From assembly GCF_045037415.1 (NCBI RefSeq), contig NZ_CP173438.1: a DNA stretch of 64,000 bases; one strand, written 5' to 3'. Made by a program: the position numbers and the translations under genes. The notes below the pieces were generated by a model. That model saw nothing but the letters and a program-made list of their open reading frames with translations. It did no database searches and was not told where the DNA came from. The DNA comes from Escherichia coli. GTDB taxonomy: Bacteria > Pseudomonadota > Gammaproteobacteria > Enterobacterales > Enterobacteriaceae. Below, one piece after another: positions 61,481-62,180 of the stretch (its first letter is position 1; every line of letters begins with the position of its first letter).

Positions 61481-61828
61481 ATGAAAATTTCCCGCCTCGG
61501 AGAAGCGCCCGATTACCGCTTCTCGCTGGCTAATGAGCGTACTTTTCTGGCGTGGATCCGTACTGCACTAGGATTTCTGGCGGCGGGGGTTGGGCTTGAT
61601 CAACTTGCGCCAGATTTCGCCACGCCCGTCATCCGCGAACTGCTGGCGTTGTTGTTGTGTCTGTTTTCCGGCGGGTTAGCGATGTATGGCTACTTGCGCT
61701 GGTTACGCAATGAAAAAGCGATGCGCCTGAAAGAGGACCTGCCCTATACCAACAGCTTATTCATCATCAGCTTAATATTGATGGTCGTGGCAGTGATCGT
61801 CATGGGACTGGTGTTGTATGCCGGATAG
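61481..61828 (+). CDS. yidH: DUF202-family inner membrane protein (115 aa)
   Basis: ORF 61421..61828; ATG at 61481 after RBS aaggag: MKISRLGEAPDYRFSLANERTFLAWIRT…. Confidence 0.8.
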   Translation: MKISRLGEAPDYRFSLANERTFLAWIRTALGFLAAGVGLDQLAPDFATPVIRELLALLLCLFSGGLAMYGYLRWLRNEKAMRLKEDLPYTNSLFIISLILMVVAVIVMGLVLYAG

Positions 61829-62180
61829 CCGCAAAGCCAGACGCATTGCCGACCCAGGGCTGCAGCCGGAACGCACATCACTGGCGTGGTTTCGTACCAT
61901 GCTGGGCTACGGCGCGTTGATGGCGTTGGCTATCAAACACAACTGGCACCAGGCGGGCATGTTATTCTGGATTTCGATTGGCATCCTCGCCATTGTGGCG
62001 CTGATCCTCTGGCACTACACCCGTAATCGCAATTTAATGGATGTCACGAATAGCGATTTTTCCCAATTTCACGTAGTCCGTGACAAATTTTTGATCTCCC
62101 TCGCGGTGTTATCTCTCGCAATACTGTTTGCTGTAACGCATATACATCAACTTATCGTATTTATTGAGAGAGTCGCATGA
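61818..62180 (+). CDS. yidG: DUF202-family inner membrane protein (120 aa)
   Basis: 120-aa ORF …QPERTSLAWFRT…, paralog-like to yidH; overlaps yidH and yidF ends. Confidence 0.8.
   Translation: MPDSRKARRIADPGLQPERTSLAWFRTMLGYGALMALAIKHNWHQAGMLFWISIGILAIVALILWHYTRNRNLMDVTNSDFSQFHVVRDKFLISLAVLSLAILFAVTHIHQLIVFIERVA

What the first reader, a model, noticed from the sequence alone, without database searches (positions are those of the whole stretch)
61481..62180. Tandem DUF202 paralogs yidH and yidG with overlapping coding ends
Two adjacent small membrane proteins share the N-terminal motif ERT(F/S)LAW(I/F)RT followed by hydrophobic helices, indicating tandem duplication. yidH, yidG and yidF overlap by 11 and 4 bp, suggesting coupled translation with the sulfatase locus. 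Their function is unknown.
Basis: seen in the sequence. Interest (0 to 1): 0.3.

Follow-up and report, generated by a model that had tools for sequence, protein, structure and literature searches.

The report
Paired VTC-like membrane genes beside sulfatase
Two small, overlapping E. coli membrane-protein genes (yidH, yidG) are an ancient, tightly conserved pair related to the pore of the yeast polyphosphate channel; they sit next to cytoplasmic sulfatase genes in many bacteria, so they may be a channel that lets sulfate out, but the genes themselves are already catalogued.

Summary
yidH (61481-61828) and yidG (61818-62180) are intact, both match Pfam DUF202, share the ERTxLAWxRT motif, and overlap by 11 bp; yidG overlaps yidF by 4 bp. 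The window matches E. coli SK1144, so the genes are already annotated.

The interpretation needs correcting in three ways.
- The duplication is ancient, not recent. In 78 of 80 related loci from Proteobacteria and Actinobacteria, a YidH-type gene is followed directly by a YidG-type gene.
- Both proteins are homologues of the three-helix pore subunit of the eukaryotic VTC polyphosphate channel. The pore arginine and the inter-subunit glutamate are conserved.
- The sulfatase link is real but optional. Cytoplasmic Cys-type sulfatases of six distant clades, plus either of two unrelated sulfatase-maturing enzymes, recur beside the pair. Salmonella, Klebsiella and most Actinobacteria keep the pair without a sulfatase.

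In this window the sulfatase side is decayed: yidJ is frameshifted and yidF is an internally deleted maturase. yidH and yidG remain under strong purifying selection.

My best guess (confidence about 0.4) is a hetero-oligomeric channel that exports sulfate or sulfite made in the cytoplasm. This is inferred, not shown.

The parts
61481..61828 (+). yidH, 115 aa. YidH-type DUF202 subunit with three transmembrane helices and invariant R13, E19, R20, R27 and W74.
61535..61564 (+). Codons for the YidH motif ERTFLAWIRT (residues 19-28). E19 and R20 align with Vtc1 E30 (inter-subunit ionic lock) and R31 (pore constriction).
61818..61828 (+). 11-bp overlap ATGCCGGATAG. The yidG start codon lies inside the last codons of yidH.
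   Evidence: the same spacing is kept in Enterobacteriaceae loci
61818..62180 (+). yidG, 120 aa. YidG-type DUF202 subunit with three transmembrane helices and invariant R19, T20 and R26.
61869..61898 (+). Codons for the YidG motif ERTSLAWFRT (residues 18-27).
62177..62674 (+). yidF, 165 aa. Internally deleted anaerobic sulfatase-maturing enzyme. It keeps the first 6-7 codons and parts of the C-terminal half and has lost the radical-SAM CX3CX2C core. Its ATGA start overlaps the yidG stop.
59927..61421 (+). yidJ, a cytoplasmic Cys-type sulfatase (CTPAR motif, no signal peptide). It is frameshifted in this strain by an extra C near 60258.
58215..59930 (+). yidK, a sodium:solute symporter and the presumed importer of the sulfated substrate. 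It overlaps yidJ by 4 bp.
57182..58048 (-). yidL, a divergently transcribed AraC-family regulator.

Best explanation
YidH and YidG are two different subunits of one inner-membrane channel built like the transmembrane part of the eukaryotic VTC polyphosphate channel. In that channel several three-helix subunits stand in a ring, their first helices line the pore, and arginines face the pore.

The overlapping gene ends favour the two subunits being made together. The channel most likely lets an inorganic sulfur oxyanion, sulfate or perhaps sulfite, leave the cytoplasm. In the ancestral enterobacterial operon (yidK-yidJ-yidH-yidG-yidF) a sulfated sugar would be imported by YidK. The cytoplasmic sulfatase YidJ, activated by the full-length maturase YidF, would remove the sulfate, and YidH/YidG would export it.

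Shown here: the homology, the conserved pairing, the conserved pore residues and the genomic association. Inferred: the ring assembly, the transported ion and the direction of transport.
For: 1. Homology to the VTC pore subunit.
- YidH alone matches Vtc1 over its full length (E 0.002-0.005).
- The YidH-family profile matches Vtc1 at E 5e-7 and Vtc3 at E 7e-4.
- For the YidG-family profile the four best PDB hits are all Vtc1 (E 0.03-0.08).
- The best fold match of the YidG model is Vtc1 chain 8i6v_B (TM-score 0.65, rmsd 3.5 A), and six VTC chains are among the top 22.

2. Conserved functional residues.
- YidH R13, E19 and R20 align with Vtc1 K24, E30 and R31.
- In VTC, K24 and R31 form the positively charged pore rings. 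R31 forms the narrowest point, phosphate ions sit at the entrance, and E30 makes the inter-subunit ionic lock (PMC9911596; bioRxiv 10.1101/2023.01.27.525886).
- YidH has invariant R13, R20 and R27, spaced seven residues apart and so on one helix face. YidG has invariant R19 and R26.

3. Obligate pairing.
- In 78 of 80 loci a YidG-type gene directly follows a YidH-type gene.
- The gap from the yidH stop codon to the ER codons of yidG is 17-93 nt in nearly all loci, median about 40.
- A fused YidH-linker-YidG model built on a paired alignment gives pLDDT 82 and pTM 0.79.

4. Strong purifying selection: dN/dS is 0.01-0.08 for yidH and 0.05-0.21 for yidG.

5. Association with cytoplasmic production of sulfate or sulfite.
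- Sulfatase is the commonest neighbour family in 21 non-enterobacterial proteobacterial loci: 10 of 123 genes within three positions, against 0 of 165 further out (Fisher p 1.6e-4).
- These sulfatases fall in six clades less than 30% identical to each other. All have a Cys-type motif and no signal peptide.
- Gene orders vary, and the pair abuts either the radical-SAM maturase or the unrelated FGE maturase.
- In Actinobacteria some pairs abut a sulfite-oxidase-like molybdoenzyme (directly upstream in L056 and L084), persulfide-dioxygenase/rhodanese fusions, or TauE.

6. Import is already covered in these operons by SSF, PTS or ABC transporters. Product export is the function left unassigned.
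Against: - There is no experimental evidence for transport of any ion.
- Most loci have no sulfatase: 11 of 21 other Proteobacteria, 40 of 41 Actinobacteria and 13 of 18 new Enterobacteriaceae loci. Even so, the pair stays under strong selection in Salmonella and Klebsiella, so its core role cannot depend on a sulfatase.
- TauE exporters lie next to the pair in four loci. That could mean export is already provided there.
- VTC is only known to move a polymer made by an attached enzyme, not free anions.
- Fold-search E-values are not significant for such small helical proteins.
- Published E. coli data do not point to sulfate. A yidH deletion is H2O2-sensitive with low NADPH and high iron (PMC4054840). 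YidH overexpression gave a hit in a D-alanine cross-feeding screen but no D-alanine transport (PMC10299036).
- My gene calls in high-GC loci are heuristic.
Confidence: 0.4

Rival explanations
1. The pair is a general inner-membrane housekeeping or stress protein, for example in ion or redox homeostasis. Its neighbourhood with sulfatase genes would then be inherited gene order plus chance, with no shared pathway.
For: - The pair persists under strong purifying selection at the same site in Salmonella, Klebsiella, Citrobacter and Enterobacter without any sulfatase.
- 40 of 41 actinobacterial loci have no sulfatase.
- It is found in 5420 of 5426 E. coli genomes.
- A yidH knockout is H2O2-sensitive with altered NADPH and iron (PMC4054840).
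Against: - Sulfatases of six unrelated clades, two unrelated maturases and several gene orders recur beside the pair in distant taxa.
- Sulfatases are enriched near the pair compared with further out in the same loci (p 1.6e-4).
- Inherited gene order alone does not explain this pattern.
Confidence: 0.25
2. The pair is a membrane partner of the sulfatase-maturing enzyme. It would dock, stabilise or supply the maturase (radical-SAM or FGE type) at the membrane, much as the VTC pore carries its catalytic domain, rather than exporting a product.
For: - The tightest linkage is to the maturase. The yidG/yidF ATGA overlap is kept in 11 enterobacterial loci and in two Vibrio loci.
- In L090 the maturase stop codon meets the yidH start codon.
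- In L092 yidG overlaps an FGE gene by 4 bp.
- Full-length maturase persists next to the pair without a sulfatase in L018 and L024.
- The catalytically dead, truncated yidF is kept as an open frame in five genera, with dN/dS 0.16-0.34 and a highly conserved C-terminus.
Against: - Both maturases are soluble enzymes that work alone in vitro (general knowledge, not tested here).
- They are unrelated in fold, so a shared docking surface is unlikely.
- Most pairs have no maturase nearby.
- The conserved arginine ladder fits a pore better than a docking site.
Confidence: 0.15
3. The pair is a bacterial phosphate or polyphosphate channel that works like VTC on the same substrate.
For: Homology to the VTC pore, with the phosphate-contacting arginine conserved.
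Against: - The proteins are stand-alone, 115-120 aa, with no polymerase or SPX domain.
- No phosphate-related family appears among the 25 commonest neighbour families in either neighbour set.
- Bacterial polyphosphate is made and kept in the cytoplasm (general knowledge).
Confidence: 0.1
4. The pair is part of the uptake route for the sulfated substrate.
For: It lies in operons with import and catabolic genes.
Against: A dedicated importer (SSF, PTS EIICB, ABC or TctA/C) is already present in those operons. A six-helix pair with a narrow arginine-lined pore is a poor fit for sugar import.
Confidence: 0.05

Closest known systems
Transmembrane domain of the eukaryotic VTC polyphosphate polymerase/channel (Vtc1 and the C-terminal domains of Vtc2/3/4; PDB 7ytj, 8i6v, 9umg)
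   Same: - Same Pfam family (DUF202).
- Three transmembrane helices per subunit.
- N-E-R-T motif at the start of helix 1, with the pore arginine (Vtc1 R31 = YidH R20 = YidG R19), the outer-ring basic residue (K24 = YidH R13) and the ionic-lock glutamate (E30 = E19/E18).
- Built from different but related subunits.

   Different: - The bacterial proteins are stand-alone, with no polymerase, SPX or other cytoplasmic domain.
- They form a fixed two-gene pair rather than a Vtc1:Vtc3:Vtc4 mix.
- They carry an extra invariant arginine deeper in helix 1 (YidH R27, YidG R26), where Vtc1 has N38.
- YidG has Asp at the K24 position.
- Their genomic partners are sulfatase and sulfur-oxidation genes, not phosphate genes.
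- Stoichiometry and substrate are unknown.
E. coli K-12 YidH and YidG (annotated inner-membrane proteins of unknown function, 'YidH family' / 'DUF202 domain-containing protein')
   Same: These are the same genes. The YidG product is identical to the RefSeq protein WP_001113432.1 found in other E. coli strains, and the coordinates match the RefSeq annotation.
   Different: Nothing structural differs. This strain lacks yidI and has a frameshifted yidJ.
TauE/SafE (DUF81) sulfite/sulfate exporters of desulfonation operons
   Same: The proposed role is the same: getting rid of a sulfur oxyanion released in the cytoplasm by a co-encoded catabolic enzyme. This role for TauE is general knowledge. TauE genes lie next to DUF202 pairs in four loci.
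   Different: There is no sequence or fold relationship, and neither YidH nor YidG matches PF01925. TauE proteins are about 250 aa in a single chain with 7-8 helices.

Membership tests
Pfam DUF202 (PF02656) | Score above the curated gathering threshold of 23.4 bits | tested here: met
   YidH scores 69.7 bits and YidG 46.0 bits.
Pfam DUF202 (PF02656) | Small protein or domain with three transmembrane helices, and the conserved (N/P)ERT motif at the start of helix 1 | tested here: met
   Model helices are 12-42, 49-82 and 92-113 for YidH and 15-42, 48-74 and 84-119 for YidG. The motif is invariant in both subfamily alignments.
VTC-type channel subunit | Sequence homology to solved Vtc1/Vtc3/Vtc4 transmembrane domains | tested here: met
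   The YidH profile matches Vtc1 at E 5e-7 and Vtc3 at E 7e-4. For the YidG profile the top four hits are Vtc1, but at E 0.03-0.08. YidG is linked to YidH at hhalign E 1.9e-12.
VTC-type channel subunit | Fold match to a solved VTC subunit | tested here: inconclusive
   The best PDB match of the YidG model is Vtc1 8i6v_B (TM-score 0.65, rmsd 3.5 A) and six VTC chains are in the top 22. All Foldseek E-values are above 1.
VTC-type channel subunit | Pore-lining basic residues (Vtc1 K24, R31) and the ionic-lock glutamate (E30) conserved | tested here: met
   YidH R13, R20 and E19 are invariant. YidG R19 is invariant and E18 nearly so.
VTC-type channel subunit | Ionic-lock arginine after helix 2 (Vtc1 R83) | tested here: inconclusive
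   Conserved arginines exist near the end of helix 2 (YidH R73, R76, R82; YidG R71). The alignments place them 1-6 residues away from R83, and I could not read the model coordinates.
VTC-type channel subunit | Ring (pentamer) assembly with first helices lining a pore | not testable with these tools
   Only a fused 1:1 model could be made (pTM 0.79). No multimer prediction or coordinate access was available.
VTC complex (polyphosphate polymerase) | Attached catalytic TTM domain and SPX regulatory domain | tested here: not met
   The proteins are 115 and 120 aa with DUF202 as the only domain above threshold. No such domains appear among the listed neighbour families.
Recent tandem gene duplication | High similarity between the two copies and a narrow taxonomic range for the duplicated state | tested here: not met
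   Pairwise similarity is limited to 17 residues and profile identity is about 25%. The two-type pair occurs in 78 of 80 loci spanning Proteobacteria and Actinobacteria.
Known sulfate/sulfite exporter families (e.g. TauE/SafE) | Sequence match to the family model | tested here: not met
   No Pfam or NCBIfam match other than DUF202 passes threshold.
Anaerobic sulfatase-maturing enzyme (for yidF) | Radical-SAM CX3CX2C core plus a complete SPASM domain, with a score above the NCBIfam cut-off | tested here: not met
   yidF scores 78 bits against a cut-off of 349 and matches only profile positions 160-363. Alignment to 370-374-aa orthologues shows two internal deletions, one of which removes CNLNCRYC.

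The most novel reading that the evidence does not exclude
YidH/YidG-type DUF202 pairs would be a previously unrecognised family of bacterial sulfate (sulfur-oxyanion) efflux channels. They would be the missing 'product exit' of cytoplasmic sulfatase and sulfite-producing pathways, and stand-alone prokaryotic relatives of the pore that eukaryotes later joined to a polyphosphate polymerase in VTC.
Probability: 0.3. Interest if true: 0.65.

Novelty: already known. Interest (0 to 1): 0.35.

Why it matters
The genes and their family assignment are already in every E. coli annotation, so the finding as written is ordinary. What the follow-up adds is a testable function for a widespread family of unknown function.

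- Searching the full-text library for DUF202, COG2149, PF02656, yidH and yidG turned up no paper assigning a function to bacterial DUF202 proteins or linking them to sulfatases.
- To my knowledge no dedicated sulfate efflux route is firmly established in E. coli. Growth on sulfated sugars should release sulfate in the cytoplasm in large amounts.
- If the pair is that exit, it would complete the logic of cytoplasmic sulfatase operons: import, maturation, hydrolysis, export.
- It would also give the eukaryotic VTC pore a simple bacterial relative that can be studied genetically.

Tried and rejected
- The Foldseek search with the fused six-helix YidH-linker-YidG model returned only meaningless GPCR and rhodopsin matches. 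I replaced it with a single-subunit search.
- Apparent natural fusions of two DUF202 units (P0211, P0227) have Arg/Pro-rich out-of-frame middles. They look like frameshift or read-through artefacts, so I did not use them as evidence for interaction.
- The top hit of the 'DUF202' literature search is spurious: it matches DUF2023 and similar names by word-start. The archaeal paper I also opened was likewise irrelevant.
- The promoter and terminator scan gave counts at or below the shuffled expectation, so it says nothing about transcription units.
- YidG alone has no meaningful PDB sequence hit; its best matches, such as FieF, are chance.
- I first read the Salmonella and Klebsiella contexts as showing the sulfatase link to be E. 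coli-specific. I dropped that view when full-length yidF and yidJ turned up in Kluyvera, Pluralibacter, Citrobacter werkmanii and Pseudocitrobacter, and when other sulfatase clades turned up in Vibrio, Azospirillum, Rahnella and others.
- My first gene-calling filter for high-GC loci lost real genes, so I revised it.

Full report
**What is in the window.**
The region matches Escherichia coli strain SK1144 at 100% identity over 3 kb. 5420 of 5426 complete E. coli genomes carry it. RefSeq annotates the same genes I find by ORF listing:
- yidL: AraC-family regulator, minus strand.
- yidK: sodium:solute symporter, 58215-59930.
- yidJ: sulfatase, 59927-61421.
- yidH: 61481-61828.
- yidG: 61818-62180.
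- yidF: 62177-62674.
- emrD: convergent, downstream.

yidH and yidG overlap by 11 bp (ATGCCGGATAG). yidG and yidF overlap by 4 bp (ATGA). Both small proteins exceed the Pfam DUF202 threshold and carry ERTFLAWIRT and ERTSLAWFRT respectively.

**Are they paralogues, and how old is the pair?**
BLASTP sees only the 17-residue motif (E 8e-5). A profile of 61 YidH-type sequences against a profile of 73 YidG-type sequences aligns 93 columns across all three helices (97.7% probability, E 1.9e-12). They are therefore true but old paralogues.

A scan of one genome per species with a YidH alignment returned 80 loci: 18 Enterobacteriaceae, 21 other Proteobacteria and 41 Actinobacteria. The other Proteobacteria include Vibrio, Photobacterium, Azospirillum, Propionivibrio, Marinobacter, Kushneria, Rahnella, Brenneria, Pectobacterium, Dickeya, Cedecea, Acetobacter, Bordetella and Xanthobacter.
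- In 78 of the 80, a YidG-type gene (motif PERTxLAWxRT) follows the YidH-type gene (NERT[F/Y]LAWxRT) directly on the same strand.
- The gap between the yidH stop codon and the ER codons of yidG is 17-93 nt in nearly all loci, which leaves little or no intergenic space.
- Further contexts from metagenomes and other assemblies show the same pairing.
- dN/dS is 0.01-0.08 for yidH and 0.05-0.21 for yidG.

This is a conserved two-subunit unit, not a local duplication.

**What the proteins resemble.**
- YidH matches yeast and fungal Vtc1 over its whole length (E about 0.002-0.005).
- The YidH-family profile reaches E 5e-7 for Vtc1 and 7e-4 for Vtc3.
- For the YidG-family profile the four best PDB hits are all Vtc1, though marginal (E 0.03-0.08).
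- The YidG model (pLDDT 80.6) has Vtc1 as its best PDB fold match (TM-score 0.65, rmsd 3.5 A). Six VTC chains are among the top 22, but the E-values are not significant.
- A fused YidH-linker-YidG model on a paired alignment is confident (pLDDT 82.3, pTM 0.79), with three helices per half.

In the VTC cryo-EM structures five three-helix subunits form a ring and their first helices line the pore. K24 and R31 of Vtc1 form positive rings, R31 forms the narrowest point, phosphate ions sit at the entrance, and E30 pairs with R83 of the neighbouring subunit (PMC9911596; bioRxiv 10.1101/2023.01.27.525886).

The alignments place YidH R13, E19 and R20 on K24, E30 and R31. All three are invariant in the YidH family, as is R27 seven residues further on. 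YidG has invariant R19 and R26. The bacterial proteins have no polymerase or SPX domain.

**The sulfatase link.**
At first the link looked specific to E. coli. Klebsiella, Salmonella, Citrobacter farmeri and Enterobacter kobei have yidH-yidG at the same site, between yidE and emrD. There the pair is preceded by a GntR/PTS/GH4 cassette or by yidE itself, not by a sulfatase. The wider set changes the picture.

- **Enterobacteriaceae.** Kluyvera, Pluralibacter, Citrobacter werkmanii, Pseudocitrobacter and an Enterobacter species have yidL / yidK-yidJ-yidH-yidG followed by a yidF gene. That gene is full-length (370-374 aa) in four of them and appears frameshifted in Pluralibacter. Where intact, its start overlaps the yidG stop by the same ATGA.
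- **Other Proteobacteria.** Outside the family, 10 of 21 proteobacterial loci have a sulfatase within three genes of the pair, and none further out. That is 10 of 123 genes against 0 of 165 (Fisher p 1.6e-4).
- **Diversity of the sulfatases.** They fall in six clades that are 21-29% identical to each other. All have a Cys-type CxPxR motif and start directly with the sulfatase fold, with no signal peptide, so they are cytoplasmic.
- **Two maturases.** Gene orders differ between loci. One further contig has SSF-sulfatase-maturase-DUF202-DUF202. Another, from a high-GC metagenome, has ABC ATPase-DUF202-DUF202-FGE joined by 4-bp overlaps. FGE is the oxygen-dependent sulfatase maturase and is unrelated to the radical-SAM one.
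- **Actinobacteria.** Sulfatases are rare here (1 of 41). Several pairs abut other sulfur-oxyanion genes: a sulfite-oxidase-like molybdoenzyme directly upstream (L056, L084), metallo-beta-lactamase/rhodanese fusions of the persulfide-dioxygenase type (L045, L052), TauE (L054, L073) and a rhodanese-YgaP protein (L073).
- **Caveat.** Most actinobacterial contexts are uninformative, and some neighbour counts reflect Arthrobacter synteny.

**State of the locus in this window.**
- yidJ carries an extra C near 60258 that splits it into two ORFs. RefSeq annotates two CDSs, and a near-identical strain (E14) has the intact gene.
- yidF is not a working maturase. It scores 78 bits against a cut-off of 349 and matches only the C-terminal half of the family model.
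- Aligned with full-length orthologues, yidF keeps the first 6-7 codons (MTGSQVI against MTGCQVM) and then has two internal deletions. These remove the CX3CX2C radical-SAM core and part of the auxiliary-cluster region.
- Two internal deletions at similar positions occur in C. farmeri, C. youngae, Leclercia and Klebsiella. The truncated gene has dN/dS 0.16-0.34, which is relaxed but not neutral.
- yidI, which lies on the opposite strand between yidJ and yidH in 4006 of 5426 E. coli genomes, is absent here. That leaves a 59-nt gap.

So the close spacing that could couple translation joins yidH, yidG and yidF only. The sulfatase part of the locus is decaying, while yidH and yidG are well conserved.

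**Most likely mechanism.**
I propose that YidH and YidG assemble into a VTC-like ring whose arginine-lined pore conducts a small sulfur oxyanion out of the cytoplasm. The argument has three parts.
- There is homology to a known anion-polymer pore, with the pore residues conserved.
- The two subunits are always co-encoded.
- They are repeatedly recruited into operons that make sulfate or sulfite in the cytoplasm and already contain an importer, an enzyme and a maturase, but no exit for the product.

Only the first two parts and the association itself are shown here. The assembly, the ion and the direction are inferred. I put this at about 0.4.

The main rivals are:
- A general membrane role with only historical linkage to sulfatases (0.25). 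This is supported by the pair persisting without a sulfatase and by the oxidative-stress phenotype of a yidH knockout.
- A role as a membrane partner of the maturase (0.15). This is supported by the very tight linkage to both maturase types and by the retention of truncated yidF.
- A phosphate or polyphosphate channel (0.1).
- A part in substrate import (0.05).

**Novelty and verdict.**
The genes, their overlaps and their DUF202 membership are already annotated, so the finding as written is already known and of modest interest. In the searchable literature I found no paper assigning a function to bacterial DUF202 proteins or tying them to sulfatases. The sulfate-exit hypothesis is therefore a new and directly testable lead, not an established result.

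Noticed in passing
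window 59927-61421 (extra C near 60258): The sulfatase gene yidJ is split by a 1-bp insertion (GGCACCTGG against GGCACTGG in other strains). RefSeq annotates two CDSs in strain SK1144, and the near-identical strain E14 has an intact gene. It could be a real pseudogene or an assembly error.
   Followed up: partly
window 62177-62674; also L003 8697-9197, L006 8697-9275, L010 2572-3081, L011 8697-9227: yidF is an internally deleted sulfatase maturase that has lost its radical-SAM core. Two internal deletions at similar positions are found in E. coli, Citrobacter, Leclercia and Klebsiella. The ORF stays open, keeps its ATGA overlap with yidG, has a very conserved C-terminus (APHMRVMRDLIKQHRSPMELM) and shows dN/dS 0.16-0.34. 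It may have a non-catalytic role.
   Followed up: partly
window 61422-61480; compare L002 4668-5117: yidI, a small membrane-protein gene on the opposite strand between yidJ and yidH, is absent from this lineage. It is present in 4006 of 5426 complete E. coli genomes. It is fragmented in E. albertii (L008), where yidF is also frameshifted and yidJ is missing.
   Followed up: partly
L056 6829-7989 and L084 93-1220 (Mycolicibacterium / Mycobacterium): A sulfite-oxidase-like molybdopterin enzyme without an obvious export signal sits directly upstream of the DUF202 pair (gaps of -1 and 27 nt). L056 is labelled as plasmid sequence.
   Followed up: partly
L092 1-2293 (high-GC metagenome contig): Four genes joined by 4-bp overlaps: the C-terminus of an oligopeptide-type ABC ATPase, a YidH-type DUF202, a YidG-type DUF202, and a formylglycine-generating enzyme (FGE). 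The contig is too short to show whether a sulfatase is nearby.
   Followed up: partly
L037, L040, L042, L053, L058, L068, L071 (Arthrobacter and relatives): The DUF202 pair lies in a conserved block with an ADP-ribosylglycohydrolase, a DUF4395 protein, an aquaporin-family (MIP) protein and an SbcD-like phosphoesterase. I did not work out what this block means.
   Followed up: no
L003, L006, L007, L018, L019, L025 (Klebsiella, Citrobacter, Enterobacter and relatives): At the site where E. coli has yidL-yidK-yidJ, several of these genomes carry a GntR regulator, a PTS EIICB and a family-4 glycoside hydrolase. This looks like a swap of sugar-utilisation cassettes upstream of an unchanged yidH-yidG.
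   Followed up: partly
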